DNA from: a virus
Taxonomy: Duplodnaviria; Heunggongvirae; Uroviricota; Caudoviricetes
IMG/VR virus record: IMGVR_UViG_2541047850_000006
Location: 1-42,657 of that record
Length of the DNA: 42,657 nucleotides
Direction: 5' to 3' (one strand)
A program made the translations under genes and the position numbers. Shown here piece after piece: positions 7,094 through 42,582 of the stretch. The notes under the pieces are model-generated. The model saw only the letters and a list, made by a program, of their open reading frames with translations. It made no database searches and had not been told where the DNA came from. How positions within the stretch are numbered: the stretch's first letter is position 1; each line of letters begins with the position of its first letter.

Positions 7094-7140
7094 ATGCATT
7101 GGCGCAATGTACGCGCCAATGCATGATTTTTAACCTTTTT
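7094..7140 (+). terminator. Rho-independent terminator (12-bp perfect stem ATGCATTGGCGC...GCGCCAATGCAT, then GATTTTTAACCTTTTTT)
   Basis: Inverted repeat plus T-tract read directly; sits between the convergent GIY-YIG and partition genes. Confidence 0.65.
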
Positions 7141-7489
7141 TCATCAACTCTCGTTTGATTTCATCGGTACGCATCGTGACATCGGCAGCTGTGATCGCCT
7201 CGTTCAGTTTCACGATGTCCTCGATTTCCTGCGGTGACTTCTCTGCCAGATGGAAAATGGCTGCGCGAATCACGTCAGAACGGGTGAACTTCTCGAAACG
7301 AGGGATGAACTTCATCATCTCCAGCAGTTCGAAGTATTCGTCTTCCAGTGACATTGTGCGGCTTTTAATTTTCTCTTTGCCACGAGTCGGGCGTCCCTGT
7401 GGTCTGACTGGTTGGCGCAAAGGAGTTGTGTTCTTAGCCGGTGCATCAGGCTCTTTGCGCTTTGCTAGGTCACCCATTTTCATGGACAT
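7130..7489 (-). CDS. ParG-like ribbon-helix-helix centromere-binding protein (partition adaptor)
   Basis: Basic disordered N-terminus followed by an RHH-like segment RTMSLEDEYFELLEMMKF...SDVIRAAIFHLAE; its start overlaps the stop of the upstream ParA gene by 1 nt. Confidence 0.55.
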   Translation of the reverse strand: MSMKMGDLAKRKEPDAPAKNTTPLRQPVRPQGRPTRGKEKIKSRTMSLEDEYFELLEMMKFIPRFEKFTRSDVIRAAIFHLAEKSPQEIEDIVKLNEAITAADVTMRTDEIKRELMKKG

Positions 7490-8157
7490 TATTCTTCTTC
7501 CTCCAGACTCAACAGATAATCTACAAATTCTTCAAACTCGGCTTCCGCCTTTTTGTCGCGCTCGCTACCGGTCATTTCAAAGATAGAACGACCAGACTCT
7601 TCCGCATCATCATAGACGTTGCGGTTATATAGATTGACTGGCGCAGACTCGATGCCAAACGTCTCGACAATCTCTTTAGCCGCCAGAATGCGAGACACTT
7701 GTGATGGCAAAGCCGGGCACTGGTTCATGACCGCGCGGACCTTCACTTTATCGTTTACATTACGAACATTGTCGATAATAGGATCGATGTCACGCAGGGA
7801 TTTCAAATCACGACGCTTAGGACGAAGCGGGATAATGATAACGTCGGCCATCAGCATCGCTTGTCGCTGAATTTCGGAGTCGAAGCCACCAGCATCTACC
7901 ACTACAAACTCAGCTCTACCCTGAAGCGATTTTAGGTGCTTAATGATGTCATCCTGAACGTATGCAAAAGGAATCAGCTCAAGGTCTTCGTTCTGTCGAC
8001 GGTCTTCACACCAGCTCGTTGTCGTGCGCTGAATATCTATATCGGTAATATAAACCTTCTTCTTCTTTTTGACTTTCAGGCAAACGGCAATTTGCTGGGC
8101 AACGGTGGATTTGCCAGGCCCGCCCTTTGTGCCGCCAACCACAAAGATCTTGGTCAT
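7489..8157 (-). CDS. parA: ParA/ParF-type partition ATPase (small type Ib, 222 aa)
   Basis: Deviant Walker A GGTKGGPGKST near the N-terminus; size and absence of an N-terminal HTH fit the ParF class; AGGGAA SD. Confidence 0.8.
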   Translation of the reverse strand: MTKIFVVGGTKGGPGKSTVAQQIAVCLKVKKKKKVYITDIDIQRTTTSWCEDRRQNEDLELIPFAYVQDDIIKHLKSLQGRAEFVVVDAGGFDSEIQRQAMLMADVIIIPLRPKRRDLKSLRDIDPIIDNVRNVNDKVKVRAVMNQCPALPSQVSRILAAKEIVETFGIESAPVNLYNRNVYDDAEESGRSIFEMTGSERDKKAEAEFEEFVDYLLSLEEEE

Positions 8158-33665: not shown

Positions 33666-34922
33666 CTATCTCGAACCACCAAGAATAACACGGTTTTTTA
33701 CTGGATACCTACGATGTACTGGGTAGCCCAATGCGTCTGCACTATGCTCAATGCCACCTGTCTTATCCATATCTCGTGTTCCAGGCTTGTAGATGACCTT
33801 TTCCAGCGAATCAATCAAATGCTTGCATTTCGGATCGATATACAGCCTGATATCCCCAGATGCGGTCATCAGCATTCGGTTAACTGCATTAACACGATCC
33901 GCAATTGGCGGGTGTTTTTTTGAATAATCGACACGCAAGAATCCCTTCTCTTTGAATATGTCGACGTCAGACTCACCGCGAGCATGTTGACGATAAGCAC
34001 CAGCCGGAGCAGGAAATACCGTTATCTGTGATTTCCATCGCCAGAAACGTCTCTCCAGCTCATCACACACTTCTGCCGTGTTAGAGGAAAAGAGCACCAA
34101 TTCATCAATTGCCCATAGCTCACCGTTTGGCTGAGGTTGCAAAATTACGGAAGACATCGGGTCAATGTTGAAGTCCTGCCCTACCCATATAGGCAACCGA
34201 GGGTTGAACTGAAGCGGTTTTACATGCACGTTACGATCGAACGGGTAGTAAACGCGCCCGGACATGTTCTCAAAGCTGGCTAGGTACTCCTGAGCGAACG
34301 ATTTCGGGTCCATATCGTTCTTAGCAGCTTCAATTTCCGCCGTAGGTACGAACGGAGAATCGGCAGTTACAAACTGCCAGCTTTTCCACTGTCCCTTTCT
34401 TTGCAGCTCTACGTTCTGGCCTATAGTCCACAGTTTGTGAAATTCCGAGAAGCCTTTTGGCGTACCAATGATCAGTGCACCGCCACGTGTCGATGAAAGA
34501 GTAGGTCGTAACACCTTGTACCAGGTGTCAGCCTTCATATCCTGAAATTCATCAAGAACTACAAAATGCAACGCTACGCCGCGCAGAGTGTCAGGCTTAT
34601 CAGCACCTTTGAGGGCGATCTCCGAACCGTTCTTCAACACGATTGTCATCGTGGTGTCGTTCTTTTTTCTAACCCACTTACGAGGCAGAACTTCCTGTAG
34701 ATCGTCCCACAAAATCTGGCGAGCCATCTGGTAAGTAGGAGCGACATACCAGACCCTTTGCTTTTTTTCCTTTGCCGCCGCACGAATAATAGTGGAGATC
34801 GACAACCGGGATTTTCCCCAGCGTCGACCAGCACAAACAACTTTAAATCGATGGGGAGACTGGAAGACTTTCATCTGTCCAGAATGCAGTTGCACAAGAC
34901 TGAGCGAGGACGGGATTGCCAT
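33666..34922 (-). CDS. Terminase large subunit
   Basis: Walker A-like VVCAGRRWGKS, Walker B-like VVLDEFQDM, C-terminal nuclease-size domain; overlaps the small-subunit stop. Confidence 0.8.
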   Translation of the reverse strand: MAIPSSLSLVQLHSGQMKVFQSPHRFKVVCAGRRWGKSRLSISTIIRAAAKEKKQRVWYVAPTYQMARQILWDDLQEVLPRKWVRKKNDTTMTIVLKNGSEIALKGADKPDTLRGVALHFVVLDEFQDMKADTWYKVLRPTLSSTRGGALIIGTPKGFSEFHKLWTIGQNVELQRKGQWKSWQFVTADSPFVPTAEIEAAKNDMDPKSFAQEYLASFENMSGRVYYPFDRNVHVKPLQFNPRLPIWVGQDFNIDPMSSVILQPQPNGELWAIDELVLFSSNTAEVCDELERRFWRWKSQITVFPAPAGAYRQHARGESDVDIFKEKGFLRVDYSKKHPPIADRVNAVNRMLMTASGDIRLYIDPKCKHLIDSLEKVIYKPGTRDMDKTGGIEHSADALGYPVHRRYPVKNRVILGGSR

Positions 34923-35554
34923 TATTCGTCCTCCCCTTCACTTCCATCATCTGTCGCATCAAATTCGCTTAGAGCTTCTTCTTCCAACGTCTCAAGCAAT
35001 TCGTCATCGATGATTTCAGGCTCGTCGTCTTCCTGACGTAATTTCGCCACCTGGGAAGGCGTAAGTTCGCCAAATACCAGGTTCGGAATTTCTTCCTCGT
35101 CATTTTCTGCATGATCCATACCCAACGCTTTGGACGAAACTTCAAAGCATTTTGCAAGGGTATTACTTGCTCTCTGTAAGCTCTTGAGAGAATCCTCAAT
35201 CACCCCTAAAGGCTTACCCTCACGTTTGGCCGTAGTGACTTCGACCATCACCATCTGCCCCAACGCATACGCCCAGCCGTCATAACGTGTACGACGTTCT
35301 TCTATCTTTTCCGCACGGGCTTTAGCGCGAAGCTCTGCGTCAGATTTAAGAGACTCACGAACCATCTTCCCAACAGAGTCCGCGCCTTTCTCTAATCCTC
35401 GCTTTTTGAAATGTCTGGAGAGTGTTTCACGACGAATGCCGTACTCTTCCTCCAGCTTTGAGAGTGTATATTCGCCTGACGTCCATTTGGCTTCAGCTTC
35501 GGCCCACTCCGCTGGTGTCAGGCGAGTTTTTACCTCGTCTTTTTCGACAGTCAT
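34922..35554 (-). CDS. Terminase small subunit candidate (N-terminal HTH, acidic C-terminus)
   Basis: Position immediately upstream of TerL; HTH-like LSKLEEEYGIRRETLSRHFKKRG; GAGGGA SD. Confidence 0.55.
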   Translation of the reverse strand: MTVEKDEVKTRLTPAEWAEAEAKWTSGEYTLSKLEEEYGIRRETLSRHFKKRGLEKGADSVGKMVRESLKSDAELRAKARAEKIEERRTRYDGWAYALGQMVMVEVTTAKREGKPLGVIEDSLKSLQRASNTLAKCFEVSSKALGMDHAENDEEEIPNLVFGELTPSQVAKLRQEDDEPEIIDDELLETLEEEALSEFDATDDGSEGEDE

Positions 35555-35640
35555 AGATCCCTCTAAAACACACAGAGCGCGTCCATGCGCTCTAAAACAA
35601 CTTGTTTACTGCATCTACTAACCAACTTGTTTTCTGAGGT

Positions 35641-35738
35641 GTTTAATTAGGTCTGGGCATGTCTTATTAAGCCTGCTTCTGTATATATATTTAATAAGTT
35701 ATTTATTATTTATATACAGAAGCAGGTCTTTAAAATAA
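35641..35738. repeat. Long palindrome B (core 35661-35716 CCTGCTTCTGTATATA...TATATACAGAAGCAGG with extended imperfect symmetry GTCTGGG...CCCAGAC); copy 2 of 2, inverted relative to copy A
   Basis: Read directly; lies between the wHTH gene stop and the terS start region. Confidence 0.75.
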
Positions 35739-35751
35739 GCTCCCAGACCGA

Positions 35752-36018
35752 TTACATCACCAGTAACTTCGCTTTGGCTCGACCTAAAGTGGTTAACCCA
35801 AGAGTTCGGCGGTGATAGCGATTGTCACTGCGTTGGCGCGTATGCCCTTTCTCCACCAGCCCCTTTTTTATCAGAGCGCGAATTGAGAACTGGATACTTT
35901 GCTTTGTTGTCTTGTACGGCAAAACTTCAAGCAATTCGTCCAGATCAAGTAGATGACCTCGCTCATAACCGAGATTGAGCGTTTTGATGATGTCCTTTTG
36001 TTTATTGGTTAATGTCAT
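35752..36018 (-). CDS. Small winged-helix DNA-binding protein candidate (88 aa)
   Basis: Helix-turn-helix plus basic wing pattern ...TKQSIQFSIRALIKKGLVEKGHTRQRSDNRYHRR...; last gene of the coupled operon. Confidence 0.45.
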   Translation of the reverse strand: MTLTNKQKDIIKTLNLGYERGHLLDLDELLEVLPYKTTKQSIQFSIRALIKKGLVEKGHTRQRSDNRYHRRTLGLTTLGRAKAKLLVM

Positions 36019-36027
36019 GGCAAATCC

Positions 36028-36918
36028 TTATGCCGGTAAAGCAATTTCTAACGGTTTATCCAAAGGTTGTTTGTCGAATGCCAGCAGTGGCAGCGTGTCA
36101 GGCAGTCGACGACCAAAGTCAGGGTTTCGGTACACACCATACAACGGAGACGTAAAGCTCAGGTTGTGAATGTCCTTGAGCAGCTTCACAATGCTGGCCT
36201 CGTCCACCAGACTGTCGGCAATGTCCTGAATCGTCGTGCCACGATTCCGCCCAGCTTTTGCCAGGGAACTGTTCTTGTGGTAGTCCGCCACCAGATCACG
36301 CAGTGCACGGCGACGACGAGACTCGCTCATTGCGAACAACTCTTTGACGATCGCCTCGTTATCACCCGTGTCGGAACGGAAATGGCGCTGGAATACACGC
36401 AGTGCACTTTCATAGCTCTTCGGTCGCTCAGGGCGGATAAACTTAAACCCTGCTTTCATGGCGAAGGGATTGTATTTGCTCATCGAGGACTGGATCTCAA
36501 TGATTGGCCGGTCATGCATCCTGCTAACCAGGTTAATCATTCGATAAGAGACGCCTACGCCACGATACTGAGTATCCACAACTGAGCGACTGATCACCGC
36601 AAAGTTGTTATTCACGTACCGACCCCAGTACTGGTTAGCCACGGTGGTATTAGTGGTTGGTTTCAACTTAGGAAACATGCGGTGGCGAGGTGCCAACAGT
36701 AGTTTCGGGTAAGCCATAACCACGACGCCCACCAGACGATCATCAAGTTCGCAGCGATAGTAAGTTGGCGCGAAAGGTTTGCCGTCTGTTTTGTAGTGAA
36801 GCGACTTAAGAGCGTGCCAGTCCTCTACAGTTCCCTTTGTAACAGTCATTCGCTCCAGAAAGTCCAGATGACGCGGAAACTCTTCAGGGCGGTAGCGTTT
36901 AATGATGATGTCCGTCAT
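36028..36918 (-). CDS. GNAT-fold (acyl-CoA N-acyltransferase-like) protein with ~130-aa C-terminal extension
   Basis: QYRGVGVSYRM fits the GNAT Q/R-x-x-G-x-G/A acetyl-CoA loop, preceded by beta-strand-like YYRCELDDRLVGVVVMAY; its start overlaps the ATPase stop. Confidence 0.5.
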   Translation of the reverse strand: MTDIIIKRYRPEEFPRHLDFLERMTVTKGTVEDWHALKSLHYKTDGKPFAPTYYRCELDDRLVGVVVMAYPKLLLAPRHRMFPKLKPTTNTTVANQYWGRYVNNNFAVISRSVVDTQYRGVGVSYRMINLVSRMHDRPIIEIQSSMSKYNPFAMKAGFKFIRPERPKSYESALRVFQRHFRSDTGDNEAIVKELFAMSESRRRRALRDLVADYHKNSSLAKAGRNRGTTIQDIADSLVDEASIVKLLKDIHNLSFTSPLYGVYRNPDFGRRLPDTLPLLAFDKQPLDKPLEIALPA

Positions 36919-37580
36919 AAATGGACCTCATCATGACTACCATTGTGATATTCCACCTTCACGCGTTCTTTGTAGTGCTTGATGATCTGCATATCCGGGC
37001 GCAGCGCGTTCTTCAGGTCTTCGTGAGTCGTCGCCACCATTACCGTCGCACCAACCTTTCGAGCGGCACGCTGGAGGTTAGATGCCACAACCTGAGCGGT
37101 TACACGGTCTAGAACAGCACCGAACTCGTCAGCAGCCCACACTTTAGCGCCTGACTCAATCAGTTTGGCAATCTTGAGACGATATTTCTGGCCGTCTGAC
37201 ATTTCAGAAGGCTTGCGAACAAACAGATATGCATCGTTCAGACCAGCCATAGATAACAACCCAAGCGCATCGCTGGTCGTTTTGCCCAACTGATCGATGA
37301 CGTTAACCTCATTATCGAAGGTAAAATCATCGATGGAGGCTACAGACAGCCCTTCATCCTTCATCTGTCGTTGCAACTCGCGCAGCACAACGGATTTGCC
37401 GGAACCGGATTGGCCGGTGATGTACACCACATCGCCCTGCTTCACTTCCAGCTCCAGATTGTCGTAAAGCGTCCACTCTTTTTCGTCCAGGCCAAGCCCG
37501 AACGACTCAGCGATTTCCAACGTGCGCGTGGTTTTATTTACGTGTGTCTGAAACGATACGTTGATGTTGTATTTGCTCAT
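36915..37580 (-). CDS. Small stand-alone ABC-type ATPase (221 aa)
   Basis: Walker A GQSGSGKS, ABC signature LSDGQKYRL, Walker B VWAADEF, H-loop-like VMVATTHE; 4-nt overlaps with both neighbours. Confidence 0.7.
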   Translation of the reverse strand: MSKYNINVSFQTHVNKTTRTLEIAESFGLGLDEKEWTLYDNLELEVKQGDVVYITGQSGSGKSVVLRELQRQMKDEGLSVASIDDFTFDNEVNVIDQLGKTTSDALGLLSMAGLNDAYLFVRKPSEMSDGQKYRLKIAKLIESGAKVWAADEFGAVLDRVTAQVVASNLQRAARKVGATVMVATTHEDLKNALRPDMQIIKHYKERVKVEYHNGSHDEVHL

Positions 37581-38278
37581 GCAGCCATCTCCCCGGAAGA
37601 GATCTTCTCCGCATATGCCACAAATGCGTCTACCCCGCTTTCTCCCGTCATTTCTTCCATATGGGCAAGCAAATCACCAACAACAATGGCAGAGCCAGCA
37701 GGGAGAGTTTTAAAGCCCAATACGTCGACAACACGTACTTCTTCCGCTGCAACTTCACGACTGATCTCGGTGTGTTCATCCTTCTGTCGTTTAGTTTCTT
37801 CGCCAAGATCGATAACTAGCGAGTCGGTGTCCATTTCTTCTGTCATACTGCCAACGAGAACATTCAACTCACGCTCTTCAAAGCCGAAAACCTCGATATC
37901 GTCCAGAACAAGCGACTCAAGCTCTTTCTGTAGCTTAATTGCATCGTAATCAATGCTGGCAAGTCGGTTATCTTCAAGGCGCTTCGCACGAACCTCGTCA
38001 TCACTGAGATCATCGCGAACAATAACCGGTACACGCTCAAGTCCAGCAAAAATTGCAGCCTCACGGCGGCCGTGGCCAGTAATAATTACGTCGTTCTTAT
38101 CGACCGTAATTGGCTGGTCAAATCCGCGCTTTTTAATGGCTGCGGCCAGATCTCTGATCTGCTGTTCATCATGCTTTTTGGCATTCATCTCATAGGGAAT
38201 AAGATCTGCCGGGTCGCGATATACGATTTCAAACTTTTTGGTCATTACATACGCTCCTTGTAGTAGTCGACCAGCCAC
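37577..38278 (-). CDS. ParB/Srx-fold domain protein 2 (likely start at ATG near 38245)
   Basis: ParB N-terminal-domain-like ...VIITGHGRREAAIFAGLERVPV...; the ATG overlaps the stop of the upstream ParB-like gene. Confidence 0.65.
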   Translation of the reverse strand: MAGRLLQGAYVMTKKFEIVYRDPADLIPYEMNAKKHDEQQIRDLAAAIKKRGFDQPITVDKNDVIITGHGRREAAIFAGLERVPVIVRDDLSDDEVRAKRLEDNRLASIDYDAIKLQKELESLVLDDIEVFGFEERELNVLVGSMTEEMDTDSLVIDLGEETKRQKDEHTEISREVAAEEVRVVDVLGFKTLPAGSAIVVGDLLAHMEEMTGESGVDAFVAYAEKISSGEMAA

Positions 38279-38943
38279 ACCAGAGCCTCACCAGCGTTTT
38301 CCATTTCATTGCCAGTATTAATTGCCTGGTCTTTGATGATGTTTTTTATGGTTTCTGCAACGCGATCTGACGCATCGAAGGTTACTTTGAAGCGCATGGT
38401 CTGATGTTCCGCACCGACACGTTCGGTTTTCTCTCGTTTGTCGGTATCGACAGGCTCATCACTACCACGAGACAACGCCTCCAGTGCTTCAAGGTCAATT
38501 GCCGCCTCTTTTGCTAAAACCATCGAGATTTCGTCGTCATACGGGGCGATTTCAGACAGTTGATAGTCAAGTTCTGACTGAATTTCTTCAATGAAGCGTT
38601 GCAATGCGATTTGGTCGTCTTCACCGTATCGCTCGTTGTCCACCAGTGACATCTGTTTTGCCACGACATCGCTAATTTTGCCCACAGAAAGCACAGGAAC
38701 CGTTGAAATTCCTTGCTCAATAGCAGCACGCCAGCGATGTTCGCCGCCGAGGATTTCAAAAAATCCATCTTCAAGCTCACGAGCCAAAATTGGCTTAAAA
38801 AAGCCCAATTTTTCGATAGAACCTTTCAGTTTTTCGAAATTCTGCGCACCAACCGAATTGGTGTTCCAGGTATTCGGGCGAAGGTTGGCAACATCAACCT
38901 GCAAAATCGTGATTTTTACGTCCATTTTATTGCTACAATCCAC
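38245..38943 (-). CDS. ParB/Srx-fold domain protein 1 (likely start at ATG near 38925)
   Basis: ParB N-terminal-domain-like ...FEILGGEHRWRAAIEQGISTVPV...; first gene of the operon; palindromic motif immediately upstream. Confidence 0.65.
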   Translation of the reverse strand: MDCSNKMDVKITILQVDVANLRPNTWNTNSVGAQNFEKLKGSIEKLGFFKPILARELEDGFFEILGGEHRWRAAIEQGISTVPVLSVGKISDVVAKQMSLVDNERYGEDDQIALQRFIEEIQSELDYQLSEIAPYDDEISMVLAKEAAIDLEALEALSRGSDEPVDTDKREKTERVGAEHQTMRFKVTFDASDRVAETIKNIIKDQAINTGNEMENAGEALVWLVDYYKERM

Positions 38944-38962
38944 TAAGTAATCACTTACTTAT
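38943..38962. promoter_or_regulatory. 20-bp palindromic motif CTAAGTA-ATCACT-TACTTAT in the divergent region between the ParB-like operon and the SF2 helicase
   Basis: Same half-site architecture as 11165-11184. Confidence 0.5.
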
Positions 38963-39007
38963 CATAATAGCCAAATAACATACAAAAGGCACTAAGGAAA
39001 GAGGTTT

Positions 39008-40567
39008 ATGACTGTTCGGATTGTATCTAACGCAGTAAATGCGCTTATTTCTGGCGCAGATGACAAGGTAAAGCAACTGGTGCAGCAAATGTTGAGCTAC
39101 GAAGTCGAGGCTGGCGACTGGAAGGGCACAAGCACAATGTTCAACTGGAGCAAAAACTCGTTCCCTGCTGGCTTTGCCAAGCCCGTGGCGGCTAATTTGA
39201 ACAAGGCGGGCATCAAATGTGTTCATATCCGCAAAGACAAAGCCCCGGCGCTTGGTAAACCAAATCCGGCGGTTAACCCATTCCCATACAATCCTGATTA
39301 TGCGTATCAGGATCAGACTGTGGAAACACTGGTTCGAGAGGGAATGATGATTGCGCAGATCGCTACTGGTGGCGGGAAATCTAACGTTGCCTGCAAAGCA
39401 GCTGCACGTATCGGTCGAATGACATTATTTTTAACAACCCGCTCTGTTCTGATGTTTCAAATGGCCGAAAACTTCCAGAGATCCATCGACTACCGCGCCA
39501 AAAATGGCGAACCGTGGTTAAAAGACCAAAAGGTTGGAGTCATTGGCTCGGGTGAGTTCCAGGTATCACGACATATCAACGTCGCTACAGTTCAAACTCT
39601 TGCAAGTTTCCTCGAAGAACCACCACGCGATGCAACACCAGATAAGAAAAGCTACCACCTCAAACGTCGGGAGTTGGTGAAACGCTTCCTTTCAAGTGTC
39701 TCTCTTCTTATTCTGGAAGAGGCGCATGAGTCTTCAGGCTCAAATTTCTATGACATCGCCAGATTATGTGTGAACGCAGACTATCGTCTGGCGCTTACAG
39801 CCACGCCGTTCATGAAGGATTCGACGGAAGCCAACATGCGCCTGATGGCGGTGGCCGGGCGAATTGAAATTAAAGTCACAGAAAAGTATCTGATTGATCG
39901 AGGCATTCTGGCAAAGCCGTACTTCCTTTATCATAAAGTTGCCTACAAGCCAGACGAGGCCAGAATCAAGGCCGAACTTGCCAACAAACACCTCAATTTT
40001 AGAGTTGGTATGAGCACCGCCTACCAAAAGGCTTATCAGTTGGGGATCGTGTATAATTTGGGACGTAATGAGGCCATTGTTCGCGAAGCATTGCTCTATA
40101 AGCAACATTCTCTCAATTGTATGACTCTGGTTCGTCTTAAACGCCACGGGCAAATCCTGATGGAAATGATGAAAGAGTCCGGCCTTAGAGTTGACTTCAT
40201 CTATGGGGAATCGAACCAGGCGACAAGGCAAGCAAAGCTGAACAGTTTAGCGTCTGGCGAAATAGATGTTTTAATAGGCTCGACTATTCTGGATGTCGGT
40301 GTTGATGTGCCAAGCGTTGGTGCGGTCATTCTGGCTGGTGGTGGGAAAGCAGAAGTTGAAATGAGGCAGCGTGTCGGTCGTGGCTTACGAGCCAAGAAGA
40401 ATCAGGCAAACGTGTGTTTTATCACTGATTTCATTGACATTAGCAACAAATACCTGTTGTCTCACTCTTATGAGCGAAAACACATCATCGACACCACACC
40501 TGGCTTTGCGGAAGGTGTATTGCCTATTGATGGCGCATTCGATTTTGGAGTTCTGAAACGAGATTAG
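39008..40567 (+). CDS. Superfamily-2 helicase (DEAD/DEAH-box, ResIII-like), 519 aa
   Basis: Walker A ATGGGKS, DEAH-like LEEAH, motif III LTATP, motif VI-like GRGLR; ATG with AGGAAAGAGG SD. Confidence 0.75.
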   Translation: MTVRIVSNAVNALISGADDKVKQLVQQMLSYEVEAGDWKGTSTMFNWSKNSFPAGFAKPVAANLNKAGIKCVHIRKDKAPALGKPNPAVNPFPYNPDYAYQDQTVETLVREGMMIAQIATGGGKSNVACKAAARIGRMTLFLTTRSVLMFQMAENFQRSIDYRAKNGEPWLKDQKVGVIGSGEFQVSRHINVATVQTLASFLEEPPRDATPDKKSYHLKRRELVKRFLSSVSLLILEEAHESSGSNFYDIARLCVNADYRLALTATPFMKDSTEANMRLMAVAGRIEIKVTEKYLIDRGILAKPYFLYHKVAYKPDEARIKAELANKHLNFRVGMSTAYQKAYQLGIVYNLGRNEAIVREALLYKQHSLNCMTLVRLKRHGQILMEMMKESGLRVDFIYGESNQATRQAKLNSLASGEIDVLIGSTILDVGVDVPSVGAVILAGGGKAEVEMRQRVGRGLRAKKNQANVCFITDFIDISNKYLLSHSYERKHIIDTTPGFAEGVLPIDGAFDFGVLKRD

Positions 40568-40880: not shown

Positions 40881-40916
40881 ATGATGTGCTCACTTGTTAG
40901 AAAGGAGCACATCATG
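40881..40916 (+). promoter_or_regulatory. 11-bp perfect inverted repeat ATGATGTGCTC-N13-GAGCACATCAT enclosing the SD (AGGAG) and ATG of the downstream gene
   Basis: Read directly; either an mRNA hairpin sequestering the RBS or a palindromic operator. Confidence 0.5.
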
Positions 40917-41480
40917 AGTTGGTTAAAAGAATTATCATTTGTTGACACCACTGGCGCTAAGAAAAATCATTCTTTCTGGAAAGTCAGCGATCCTTCTGAT
41001 TTTCTTGTTGGCGTTAATGCTGCTTTTGAATTGCTTAACTTTTATCAACGTTATCCTGAAATGAAACACAGTCCACTCCTGTACAGAATAACAAACGATA
41101 TGAATAGGTCTGGTTTATTATCAAGTGAGTCAGCGAAAGGCTTTTTTAGCAAAATAACGCCACACATATCATTCGATGCTGCAAACGAAATTGATTATCT
41201 ATCCACGAAACCTCAAGAACAATTATCTGTACTACCTGAGAAAAAAGAAAGACGAATTGCCAGCATTGAAAATATATCGAAAGAGCTTCGCACAACAACG
41301 TTGAGGCTGCTGAACTTTCTTACGCTACTAAATTGGATAGATGATCAAACATTGATTCCATCAACCGATGCGTTGGATAACAGAGTCCTTAGGCTGAACA
41401 AAAAATCGCAATTTGGTTTTGTGTTCACCAAAAAAGGTGAAGATTTAATCAAAAGAAAATATAGATTATTGAATGATTAA
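40881..41480 (+). CDS. Hypothetical protein (about 188 aa from ATG at ~40914), AT-rich
   Basis: Track ORF; the ATG inside the inverted repeat is preceded by AGGAG; no recognisable domain. Confidence 0.5.
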   Translation: MMCSLVRKEHIMSWLKELSFVDTTGAKKNHSFWKVSDPSDFLVGVNAAFELLNFYQRYPEMKHSPLLYRITNDMNRSGLLSSESAKGFFSKITPHISFDAANEIDYLSTKPQEQLSVLPEKKERRIASIENISKELRTTTLRLLNFLTLLNWIDDQTLIPSTDALDNRVLRLNKKSQFGFVFTKKGEDLIKRKYRLLND

Positions 41481-41486
41481 TAGTCT

Positions 41487-41536
41487 ACATGCAGGTGTAT
41501 GAGAGCACCTGCATGTGACATTCATCACATTTTTTG
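41487..41536 (+). terminator. Terminator-like hairpin (11-bp stem ACATGCAGGTG/CACCTGCATGT) with a downstream T-run
   Basis: Read directly; the T-tract is displaced ~15 nt from the stem, so efficiency is uncertain. Confidence 0.45.
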
Positions 41537-41624
41537 AAGTGCACACCTCCGGCTGAAAAAAATTCTTGATTGGCTGAATGATATTTGTAGGCTTCATCGC
41601 TGAGTTTGGTCGAAGGGATAGCTA

Positions 41625-42200
41625 ATGGCTCTTTCAAATACACAACTTCACACGATATTGGATAAAGCTTCATATGTATCAAATGGGACACTTAGCGAAA
41701 ATAACATTCAGATACAACGGGGGAAAGAAACGAAAGATAAAATTCACGCTAAAGGTTTCTACTTCGGAAAGAGTTCAGCATTACGAGAATCTTATTCAAA
41801 AAACAACCCTTACTACATTTATTTAATTTCACCAGACAATGAGGAAAGACGAGATGATTATTCATTGGTCATTTTCCCTTTCCAGATAAAAGAAATACTT
41901 CCTGTGATCGAAAGTATAGATGGTATTACCCCAGGATATATTCAGTTAAGCTCAAACTTCAATACGTTCAAAATTCACAATCGCTTAAAAAGTGATTCAT
42001 ATTGTGGCGTAGGCTACTCTATAAAGGTTGAGAACGAAGACAGTCTATGGGAACTTATTGTGCAGATCAAGAAAAGGCTTGAGTTACCTAGAGGAGATAA
42101 GAACAGACTATCGACGCTACCTCAGAATGGATTACCTAAGACAAAAGAGGAAAATACACCTCAAAAGCTGATTGTAGATCTGCTCAACAAACGCTCATAA
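41625..42200 (+). CDS. Hypothetical protein (191 aa), AT-rich
   Basis: Track ORF; no confident domain. Confidence 0.5.
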   Translation: MALSNTQLHTILDKASYVSNGTLSENNIQIQRGKETKDKIHAKGFYFGKSSALRESYSKNNPYYIYLISPDNEERRDDYSLVIFPFQIKEILPVIESIDGITPGYIQLSSNFNTFKIHNRLKSDSYCGVGYSIKVENEDSLWELIVQIKKRLELPRGDKNRLSTLPQNGLPKTKEENTPQKLIVDLLNKRS

Positions 42201-42207
42201 ACTCTCA

Positions 42208-42582
42208 TTGTCAAAGACGGTTAAAAAGATGAAGTCTAAAAAAATTCAATTTTTTTCTATGGCACTCTTGGCATTCTATATAGGAAATACAGTAGCCAAA
42301 CCTTTAACGCCCGTTCAGCAAGATTACATTAAAAATATTATAGAAAAACAATTACTGGCCCCGGATGCAGCTAAATACAAATTCCCAGATCACGTTGAAG
42401 GTAGCAATACATATTGTTTCAAACTAAATGCGACTAACTCATATGGTGGGTATACAGGTTACAGATGGGTACAAATTCCTTACAATGACGTGTTAACCAA
42501 GAACAGCAACACTATTGTAGATCTAAATATCCTACCTAAAGAGGTTTTTGAAGAAAGCTGTAAAGAATTAGGGTATAAGTAG
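42208..42582 (+). CDS. Small secreted/periplasmic protein candidate (124 aa) with N-terminal signal peptide
   Basis: MKSKKIQFFSMALLAFYIGNTVA resembles a Sec signal peptide; two Cys in the mature part. Confidence 0.5.
   Translation: MSKTVKKMKSKKIQFFSMALLAFYIGNTVAKPLTPVQQDYIKNIIEKQLLAPDAAKYKFPDHVEGSNTYCFKLNATNSYGGYTGYRWVQIPYNDVLTKNSNTIVDLNILPKEVFEESCKELGYK

What the first reader, a model, noticed from the sequence alone, without database searches (positions are those of the whole stretch)
35752..38943. Translationally coupled 5-gene operon (two ParB/Srx-fold proteins, small ABC-type ATPase, GNAT-fold protein, winged-helix protein) immediately upstream of the terminase: candidate undescribed system
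Seen: five minus-strand genes with overlapping or abutting stop/start junctions (1-nt overlap at ~38245, 4-nt overlaps at 37577-37580 and 36915-36918, 9-nt gap before the wHTH gene), preceded by a palindromic motif (38943-38962) and followed by long palindrome B. Motifs: GGEHRWRAA and GHGRREAA (ParB N-domain-like), GQSGSGKS / LSDGQKYRL / VWAADEF (ABC ATPase), QYRGVGVS (GNAT loop). Established: ParB/Srx-fold proteins include CTP-dependent DNA clamps and nucleases; ABC ATPases are dimeric nucleotide-driven engines; GNATs acylate amines. Inference: this is not the partition system (a separate ParA + RHH pair sits at 7130-8157). The combination and tight coupling suggest one functional unit: DNA modification or anti-restriction, a packaging accessory, or a defence module. 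I do not recognise it as a named system.
Basis: partly seen in the sequence, partly recalled or inferred. Interest (0 to 1): 0.78.

Follow-up and report, generated by a model that had tools for sequence, protein, structure and literature searches.

The report
Phage ParB–ABC–GNAT predicted DNA-modification operon
The five genes are real and work as a unit, but the core (ParB-like proteins plus an ABC ATPase paired with a GNAT acyltransferase) is a widespread, computationally predicted and still untested virus module that most likely puts an acyl group on phage DNA before packaging.

Summary
In detail: five minus-strand genes at 35752-38943 with the stated junctions, in an SSU5-type phage-plasmid (99.9% to Escherichia phage PhiR41_1; found in more than 740 enterobacterial plasmids, including Y. 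pestis). The 'undescribed' claim is not supported. The ABC and GNAT genes are a split form of a fused protein (COG2401 type). Iyer et al. 2021 (PMC7824862) cite their 2013 prediction that it performs an uncharacterised acyl modification of a DNA base. New here: ParB->ABC(-GNAT) is conserved across unrelated phages, with ParB directly upstream in 45 of 65 informative IMG/VR loci and a terminase usually just downstream. In archaeal proviruses TerL overlaps the fused gene. Some lineages add aspartate decarboxylase, mostly with a CoA-transferase, or a formyltransferase, so the GNAT looks like a working acyl-CoA transferase. ParB2 has the NTPase fold but no detectable HTH, like the ParB activators of phage T-dioxygenases. 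The wHTH gene is specific to the SSU5 group and abuts the late-operon control region. Best reading (about 0.5): an acyl-modification module acting on replicated phage DNA. The target and the chemistry are untested. Interest is moderate.

The parts
38245..38943 (-). ParB1: ParB/Srx-fold protein (232 aa from GTG 38943; an internal ATG at 38925 gives 226 aa), paralogue of ParB2
   Evidence: ORF. Pfam ParB_N 3.2e-13. phrog_723 1e-78. It is 33% identical to ParB2 over the N-terminal domain, E 6e-10. SSU5 has ATG where the window has GTG 38943, which supports the upstream start.
37577..38245 (-). ParB2: ParB/Srx NTPase-fold protein with a helical linker and a conserved C-terminal helical module; no HTH DNA-binding domain detected
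36915..37580 (-). Soluble ABC-type ATPase (Walker A GQSGSGKS, signature MSDGQKYR, Walker B AADEF, D-loop LD, H-loop TTH) with no membrane partner; the split N-terminal half of the COG2401-type ABC-GNAT protein
   Evidence: Pfam ABC_tran 5.7e-13. phrog_293 and phrog_11143. It is collinear with the N-terminal 200 aa of the fused homologues. The closest solved chains are generic transporter NBDs.
36028..36918 (-). GNAT-fold acyltransferase-like protein (residues about 20-165) with a conserved C-terminal helical/beta extension; the split C-terminal half of the ABC-GNAT protein
35752..36018 (-). Small winged-helix-like protein (88 aa) with a basic C-terminus; conserved at this position only in the SSU5/nickie/RHEph10 supergroup
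   Evidence: phrog_900 7e-45. Weak hits to Sta1/Lrs14/LexA-type wHTH and to the CARF3 C-terminal region. A protein of 78-113 aa sits at the same position in relatives. The RHEph10 one hits Penicillinase_R at 0.0046.
38944..39007 (.). Divergent intergenic region between ParB1 and the UvsW-like helicase gene; holds the 7+7 inverted repeat 38944-38961 and a conserved TATgATAAGT, probably the promoter region
   Evidence: Sequence. Alignment with relatives. No consensus sigma-70 site was called here.
35672..35726 (.). Long palindrome (19-nt arms) around a conserved AT-rich element; the linear SSU5 and Cyrano records end in its loop
   Evidence: Record ends map to window about 35691/35692.
35573..35594 (-). 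Terminator-like hairpin with a T-tract 18 nt before the TerS-like start codon; it separates the operon from the packaging genes
   Evidence: A hairpin plus T-run lies at the same position in nickie, L002, L003 and L004.
33666..35554 (-). Context: TerS-like protein (34922-35554, phrog_867) and TerL (33666-34922)
39008..40567 (+). Context: divergently transcribed UvsW-like SF2 helicase, syntenic with the block in all SSU5-supergroup relatives

Best explanation
The block is an SSU5-lineage version of a virus-borne covalent-modification module whose core is ParB-like protein(s) + an ABC ATPase + a GNAT acyltransferase. Proposed mechanism, with each step marked as shown or inferred. (1) Shown: the ABC and GNAT genes encode the two halves of what is one polypeptide in most relatives, so they act as one enzyme. 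(2) Inferred from conserved motifs: the ABC half is an active, ATP-sandwich-dimerising NBD, and the GNAT half binds an acyl-CoA through its invariant RGxG loop. (3) Inferred from neighbours in other lineages: the enzyme transfers an acyl group. The donor is a host acyl-CoA, probably acetyl-CoA, in the window's version, which encodes no donor-supply genes. It would be a beta-alanyl-type donor where aspartate decarboxylase and CoA-transferase are added, and further tailoring would occur where a formyltransferase is added. (4) Inferred from the ParB partnership, PolB fusions, the position between replication and packaging genes, and the published prediction: the substrate is replicated phage DNA, at an exocyclic amine of a base. 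ATP-driven clamping or base access would be provided by the ABC half, by analogy with ATPase-coupled cytidine acetylation by TmcA (my recollection, not checked here). (5) Inferred by analogy with ParB-dependent phage T-dioxygenases: the two HTH-less ParB paralogues act as an NTP-binding activator or loader pair for the enzyme, not as a centromere binder. (6) Inferred: the biological role is protection of packaged DNA from host restriction or other DNA-sensing defences. The wHTH protein is probably a lineage-specific DNA-binding regulator, of this operon or of the adjacent late operon, and not a catalytic part.
Confidence: 0.5

Rival explanations
1. Packaging accessory. The ParB proteins mark or clamp the phage DNA near the pac/cos region, and the ABC-GNAT protein helps the terminase to start or regulate packaging. 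It would act as a TerS-like or TerS-assisting factor, with the GNAT domain serving as a scaffold or as a metabolic (acyl-CoA) sensor.
For: In 57 archaeal or viral loci a Terminase_6N-type TerL lies directly upstream of the fused gene on the same strand, most often with a 4-nt overlap. In bacterial phages a TerL lies within five genes downstream in at least 25 of 50 informative loci and in Sisko, LE4, Pmp13, Javan511, nickie and RHEph10. In the window the operon ends about 200 nt from the TerS-like/TerL genes, next to a long palindrome where the SSU5 and Cyrano linear records end.
Against: The TerL families differ between lineages (Terminase_3 versus Terminase_6N), so the link looks positional. 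This boundary is also where ParB-domain methyltransferase genes usually lie (my own knowledge, not tested here). Separate TerS genes exist in Pmp13 and Jace, and a TerS-like gene exists here. The module is far from any terminase in phiE255 and P12024S and is fused to PolB elsewhere. Aspartate decarboxylase, CoA-transferase and formyltransferase partners make no sense for a packaging factor. A terminator separates the operon from the packaging genes in all SSU5-group relatives.
Confidence: 0.15
2. An acyltransferase acting on a non-DNA target. The target would be a phage or host protein (terminase, portal, RNA polymerase, a defence protein), an RNA such as tRNA, or a small molecule such as a polyamine. 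ABC and ParB would act as nucleotide-dependent regulators, and the role would be host takeover or anti-defence.
For: The GNAT fold matches mostly protein N-acetyltransferases and small-molecule acetyltransferases. Phage GNATs that acetylate host proteins are known (the Rac example in PMC7824862). ParB/Srx-fold proteins include kinases and NTPases that act on non-DNA substrates (SerK, SbnI and sulfiredoxin). Anti-defence genes such as Tad2-like are inserted within the block in a relative.
Against: The constant pairing with a ParB-fold protein, the PolB fusions and the placement among DNA-metabolism genes point to DNA. The family is conserved from archaeal viruses to enterobacterial phage-plasmids, which argues against a host-specific protein target.
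Confidence: 0.2
3. An anti-phage defence or superinfection-exclusion cassette carried by the phage-plasmid, with an ABC ATPase sensor plus ParB-type nuclease effectors.
For: The ABC ATPase gives partial hits to MADS mad3/mad8, PtuA and BrxD. ParB/Srx proteins can be nucleases (literature summarised in PMC10853773). Phage-plasmids often carry defence genes.
Against: No full-length PADLOC model matches, and the hits cover only the generic P-loop or signature stretches. The block is a syntenic core of a whole phage lineage at a fixed position and is not in a variable island. Its relatives are found in lytic phages and archaeal proviruses beside the structural genes.
Confidence: 0.05

Closest known systems
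ABC-ATPase + GNAT predicted DNA base acyl-modification system (Iyer et al. 2013 NAR 41:7635, as cited in Iyer et al. 2021, PMC7824862; COG2401 / 'MK0520, ABC-type ATPase fused to a predicted acetyltransferase domain')
   Same: Same two domains in the same order with the same invariant motifs. The window's genes 3 and 4 align along the full length of the fused proteins. The Cyrano record and JGI annotations use this name. pT24, the example phage in the paper, is hit by the fused homologue.
   Different: Here the protein is split into two translationally coupled genes. It is preceded by two ParB paralogues and followed by a small wHTH gene. The C-terminal extension of the GNAT half is longer than in the bacterial fused forms. 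No member has been tested experimentally, so the 'kind' itself is only a prediction.
ParB-dependent phage thymidine dioxygenases (5mYOX + ParB; PMC13229309)
   Same: A phage ParB-fold protein that keeps the nucleotide-pocket motifs and a C-terminal module but lacks an obvious DNA-binding domain. It is encoded next to an enzyme thought to modify DNA after replication.
   Different: The partner enzyme is an ABC-ATPase/GNAT, not an Fe(II)/2OG dioxygenase. Two ParB paralogues are present instead of one. Dependence of the enzyme on ParB is untested here.
Phage Mu Mom (GNAT-fold DNA adenine modifying enzyme; PDB 8bv8)
   Different: No sequence similarity, and Mom is not the best GNAT match. Mom has no ABC ATPase or ParB partner.
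TmcA / NAT10-type ATPase-coupled cytidine N4-acetyltransferases (from my own knowledge, not tested)
   Same: A P-loop ATPase coupled to a GNAT that acetylates an exocyclic amine of a nucleic-acid base using acetyl-CoA and ATP.
   Different: The ATPase there is helicase-type, not ABC-type. The substrate is RNA. No sequence relationship was seen in any search here.
Partition ParB of ParABS systems
   Same: The N-terminal ParB/Srx NTPase fold with GxxR and DN motifs.
   Different: No adjacent ParA; the element's ParA is about 28 kb away with its own partner. No HTH domain was detected. No LG[KR]GL-type ParA-binding motif appears in the sequences. The scores are far below the TIGR00180 cut-off.

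Membership tests
ABC-ATPase + GNAT (COG2401-type) predicted DNA acyl-modification system | ABC-type nucleotide-binding domain with intact Walker A, signature, Walker B, D-loop and H-loop, and no transmembrane partner | tested here: met
   Pfam ABC_tran 5.7e-13. The motifs are read in the sequence and are invariant in the fused family. No membrane protein is encoded in the operon.
ABC-ATPase + GNAT (COG2401-type) predicted DNA acyl-modification system | GNAT-fold domain fused to, or encoded directly after, the ABC domain, with the CoA-pyrophosphate-binding loop | tested here: met
ABC-ATPase + GNAT (COG2401-type) predicted DNA acyl-modification system | Homology to the members named by the authors (Tenacibaculum phage pT24, QAX98348.1) | tested here: inconclusive
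   tblastn of the fused homologue P0185 hits the pT24 'ABC transporter ATP-binding' gene at 8e-14, but only over the ABC half. The accession itself and the 2013 paper could not be retrieved.
ABC-ATPase + GNAT (COG2401-type) predicted DNA acyl-modification system | Acyl transfer to a DNA nucleobase | not testable with these tools
   There is only contextual support: ParB partner, PolB fusions, and the donor-supply and tailoring enzymes in relatives.
Partition ParB (ParABS) | Adjacent ParA ATPase partner and an N-terminal ParA-binding motif | tested here: not met
   The neighbours are ParB, ABC, GNAT and a helicase. ParA is at about 7488-8156 with its own small partner. No LG[KR]GL motif appears in either sequence.
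Partition ParB (ParABS) | Central HTH DNA-binding domain that recognises parS | tested here: not met
ParB-activated DNA-modifying enzymes (5mYOX-ParB class) | ParB with NBD + CTD but no DBD, encoded beside the enzyme it activates | tested here: met
ParB-activated DNA-modifying enzymes (5mYOX-ParB class) | Partner is an Fe(II)/2OG 5-methylpyrimidine dioxygenase | tested here: not met
   No such domain is present in the operon or its neighbours. This is therefore an analogue, not a member.
ABC transporter | Transmembrane permease partner | tested here: not met
   There is none in the operon or in any relative's neighbourhood. The fusion partner is a GNAT. 'ABC transporter' annotations in the records are name spill-over.
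Known anti-phage defence systems (PADLOC-DB v2) | Full-length match of the components to a system's models | tested here: not met
   There are only partial hits: the N-terminal ParB part of MTase_II, and the P-loop or signature stretches of mad3/mad8/PtuA. The GNAT gives none.
Mom family | Sequence membership in the Mom clade of GNATs | tested here: not met

The most novel reading that the evidence does not exclude
This would be a three-part, nucleotide-gated DNA-acylating machine. A pair of HTH-less ParB paralogues would load or activate an ABC-ATPase/GNAT enzyme that writes an acyl mark on replicated phage DNA just before packaging. The mark would be acetyl here, and beta-alanyl-type or formylated variants in relatives that encode aspartate decarboxylase + CoA-transferase or a formyltransferase. 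That would be a new class of acyl-CoA-dependent DNA base modification beyond Mom. It would be shared by archaeal tailed viruses, actinophages and the SSU5-type plasmids of E. coli, Klebsiella, Salmonella and Yersinia pestis.
Probability: 0.4. Interest if true: 0.8.

Novelty: new member of a known kind. Interest (0 to 1): 0.55.

Why it matters
If the prediction holds, SSU5-type phage-plasmids would carry an unrecognised chemical mark on their virion DNA. These elements are common in clinical Enterobacteriaceae, with more than 740 PLSDB plasmids including Y. pestis plasmids of 94-141 kb. Such a mark would bear on restriction evasion, host range, and how sequencing reads these elements. The family would add a new acyl-CoA-dependent DNA modification chemistry with lineage-specific donors, and a second case of ParB-fold proteins acting as partners of DNA-modifying enzymes. 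The window's element is a good test bed, because PhiR41_1 and Cyrano grow on or reside in E. coli strains that can be handled in the laboratory. If instead the module serves packaging, it would be a new kind of terminase accessory shared by bacterial and archaeal viruses.

Tried and rejected
1. 'Standalone TerL + ABC-GNAT cassette in archaeal chromosomes'. This was suggested by L013, where the pair is flanked by cellular genes. I rejected it as a general claim after clustering neighbours. Most archaeal loci carry a conserved tail/neck-TerL-ABC-GNAT provirus block, and L013 is probably a remnant.

2. My first reading of TerL as lying 'downstream' of the fused gene was a sign error. Recomputing by midpoints showed TerL directly upstream.

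3. Upstream palindrome 38944-38961 as an operator or parS-like site: it is not conserved in SSU5, so I dropped it.

4. Translational coupling as evidence of a unit: overlaps are common across this genome, so they are not diagnostic.

5. ABC transporter and partition-ParB annotations: rejected (see the membership tests).

6. Defence system: PADLOC gives only partial hits.

7. Sequence search of the GNAT profile against the PDB gave nothing meaningful.

8. The afdb50 fold library was unavailable.

9. The 2013 NAR paper and the 2020 ABC-ATPase classification paper are not held. The exact published definition of the system, and whether ParB or terminase linkage was already described there, could therefore not be checked.

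10. Ten literature searches found no experimental work on this module.

11. No consensus sigma-70 promoter was called in the ParB1-helicase spacer.
Full report
**1. The observation**

The five minus-strand ORFs are present as described:

| Gene | Window coordinates |
|---|---|
| ParB1 | 38245-38943 |
| ParB2 | 37577-38245 |
| ABC ATPase | 36915-37580 |
| GNAT-like | 36028-36918 |
| small wHTH | 35752-36018 |

The junctions read from the sequence are TAATG, ATGA, ATGA, and a 9-nt gap with an AAGGA ribosome-binding site. The quoted motifs are there, except that the ABC signature is MSDGQKYRL, not LSDGQKYRL. Pfam confirms ParB_N twice and ABC_tran, while the GNAT call is only sub-threshold by sequence. 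Downstream there is a real 19-nt-arm palindrome (35672-35690 / 35708-35726). Upstream there is a 7+7 inverted repeat (38944-38961). That repeat has decayed in SSU5, so it is weakly supported. Overlapping junctions are frequent all over this genome, so they do not by themselves mark a unit.

**2. What the element is**

The region is 99.9% identical to Escherichia phage PhiR41_1. It is 98.7% identical to phage Cyrano (the same length, 108379 bp, as an E. coli LF82 plasmid record that also matches at 98.5%) and 85% identical to Salmonella phage SSU5. It occurs in 743-756 PLSDB plasmids of Klebsiella, Escherichia, Enterobacter, Yersinia (Y. pestis, 94-141 kb, about 90% identity), Salmonella and others. 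All five proteins fall into populated PHROGs (723, 930, 293, 886, 900). The Cyrano record already names gene 4 'MK0520 protein, ABC-type ATPase fused to a predicted acetyltransferase domain'.

**3. Genes 3 and 4 are one enzyme**

An exhaustive profile search of 1.84 billion representatives found 904 relatives. The distant ones are proteins of 450-500 aa in which the GNAT-like domain follows an ABC_tran domain. Both halves align with window genes 3 and 4, and all ATPase motifs and the GNAT RGxG loop are invariant. Some relatives carry PolB, an intein or TFIIB additions.

**4. Conservation of the block**

At about 45% identity the order is kept in three distant places: an Ectothiorhodospira prophage, a 3.3-Mb contig and a marine contig. 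The same order is found in the Pseudomonas nickie-type and Rhizobium RHEph10-type phages. The order is: helicase (divergent) | ParB, ParB, ABC, 0-3 small inserts, GNAT, small protein | spacer | ~210-aa protein, TerL, portal. The block is therefore a fixed core of a broad phage lineage, not a mobile island.

**5. Beyond that lineage**

The fused form is abundant in Bathyarchaeia and other Thermoproteota, in Planctomycetota, and in IMG/VR contigs.

- In 57 archaeal or viral loci a Terminase_6N-type TerL lies directly upstream on the same strand. The most common arrangement is a 4-nt overlap.
- I first misread the direction, and I first thought these were free-standing cassettes. Neighbour clustering and PHROG hits show they are tailed proviruses with ABC-GNAT as the last gene after TerL.
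- Among cultured phages, tblastn finds the family in 91 records.

Annotated neighbourhoods in cultured phages:

| Phage | Gene order |
|---|---|
| Gordonia Sisko | ParB, ABC-GNAT, formyltransferase, terminase, portal |
| Leptospira LE4 | ParB, ABC-GNAT, three small genes, TerL |
| Pasteurella Pmp13 | ParB, ABC-GNAT, TerS, TerL |
| Streptococcus Javan511, Oenococcus Vinitor-27 | ParB_N (mis-annotated as methylase), ABC, mini-GNAT; then TerL in Javan511, the end of the circular record in Vinitor-27 |
| Rhodococcus/Gordonia Jace | ParB, ABC-GNAT, aspartate decarboxylase (2e-33), family-III CoA-transferase (2e-8) |
| Burkholderia phiE255 (Mu-like) | ABC-GNAT + formyltransferase after the tail fibres |
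| Nonlabens P12024S | ABC-GNAT inside the replication module |

In 80 further IMG/VR loci of the bacterial fused type:

- ParB_N is the gene directly upstream in 45 of 65 informative loci.
- A TerL lies within five genes downstream in at least 25 of 50 informative loci, followed by portal. The TerL is of the Terminase_3 or Terminase_6N type.
- Four loci carry the aspartate decarboxylase directly after ABC-GNAT, and three of them also carry the CoA-transferase.

**6. The ParB proteins**

This is the layout described for the ParB proteins that activate phage thymidine dioxygenases (PMC13229309). A survey of the fold also reports varied NTP preferences and a GTP-binding ParB-acetyltransferase fusion (PMC12704722).

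**7. Transcription context**

A terminator-like hairpin lies at 35573-35594, 18 nt before the TerS-like start codon. A hairpin recurs at the same position in relatives, and an AT-rich element conserved across relatives lies within the window's long palindrome. The five genes are therefore their own transcription unit, and the wHTH gene abuts what looks like the control region of the late operon. The SSU5 and Cyrano linear records end in the palindrome's loop.

**8. Prior knowledge**

Iyer et al. [quoted passage not shown] The fused homologue hits pT24 over the ABC half. The 2013 paper and the 2020 ABC classification are not held. No experimental study was found in ten searches.

**9. Interpretation**

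The fusion evidence shows that genes 3 and 4 are one enzyme. The conserved adjacency shows that ParB is its regular partner in bacteria. The recurrent donor-supply and tailoring enzymes argue that the GNAT is a working acyl-CoA-dependent transferase. These are aspartate decarboxylase (mostly with a CoA-transferase) and the formyltransferase.

DNA as the substrate is inferred from four things: the ParB partnership, the PolB fusions, the position between the replication and packaging genes, and the published prediction. I put this at about 0.5. I give about 0.15 to a packaging-accessory role, which is favoured by the archaeal TerL coupling. Against it are the differing TerL types, the separate TerS genes, the enzyme partners and the cases far from any terminase. 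I give about 0.2 to acyl transfer to a non-DNA target, and about 0.05 to defence.

**10. Verdict**

The claim that the system is undescribed is not supported. This is an SSU5-lineage member (split genes, duplicated ParB, added wHTH) of a predicted but untested virus DNA-modification family. It is worth testing because the host elements are common and can be handled in the laboratory.

Noticed in passing
window 35555-35751: The spacer between the wHTH gene and the TerS-like gene has three features. It holds a 19-nt-arm palindrome (35672-35690 / 35708-35726) around an AT-rich element conserved in distant relatives. It also holds a terminator-like hairpin (35573-35594) 18 nt before the TerS-like ATG. 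The linear GenBank records of SSU5 and Cyrano end in the palindrome loop (about 35691/35692). This could be the cos/pac site or a late promoter with an antitermination arrangement.
   Followed up: partly
L173 5133-5435 (Rhizobium phage RHEph10 gp080); also L006 1235-1489, L172 5130-5465, L002 6961-7999: The junction between the ABC and GNAT genes is an insertion hot spot for small genes in relatives. RHEph10 carries a Tad2-like (anti-Thoeris) gene there (Pfam 5e-23). SSU5, nickie and the Ectothiorhodospira prophage carry other small ORFs (Phage_gp49_66, RyR domain). The window has no insert.
   Followed up: partly
L175 5092-6203 (phage Jace gp87-gp88); L250, L209, L211, L232: Aspartate decarboxylase follows the ABC-GNAT gene in Jace and in four divergent IMG/VR contigs. 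It is followed by a family-III CoA-transferase in Jace and in three of those contigs (L250, L209, L211). This suggests a dedicated beta-alanyl-CoA-type donor supply.
   Followed up: partly
L167 1814-2464 (Gordonia phage Sisko gp3); L170 5089-5703 (phiE255 gp30): Sisko gp3, annotated 'tRNA-methyltransferase', is a Formyl_trans_N protein. The same family follows ABC-GNAT in the unrelated Mu-like phage phiE255.
   Followed up: partly
P0206, P0179; loci L128-L130, L149; P0163; P0154: Some relatives are fused N-terminally to a family-B DNA polymerase (1260-1311 aa). One has a Hint/LAGLIDADG intein inside the ABC domain. One has C-terminal TFIIB repeats.
   Followed up: no
L013 (Bathyarchaeota contig CAWGYA010000005.1) 6438-9380: A TerL + ABC-GNAT pair is flanked by ordinary cellular genes (glutamate synthase, UDP-glucose dehydrogenase, glycosyltransferase, flippase). 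Most other archaeal loci instead carry the full tail-TerL-ABC-GNAT provirus block. This one is probably a remnant, but domestication is not excluded.
   Followed up: partly
window 37577-38245 and relatives (L169 3486-4004, L171 3297-3980, L173 3417-4079): Short ParB_N-only proteins are annotated as 'DNA modification methylase' or 'type II methyltransferase' in several GenBank records (PhiR41_1, Javan511, Vinitor-27, RHEph10). This is name spill-over from ParB-methyltransferase fusions.
   Followed up: yes
L002 1-1569 and L003 2695-3183: In distant SSU5-supergroup relatives, a dCMP deaminase gene (in both loci) and a radical-SAM gene (in L002) lie a few genes beyond the divergent helicase. Whether they relate to DNA modification was not examined.
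   Followed up: no
window 41001-42000: G+C drops to 0.357 from about 0.45-0.50 elsewhere, over plus-strand ORFs of unknown function (40881-42582). These are possibly acquired accessory genes.
   Followed up: no
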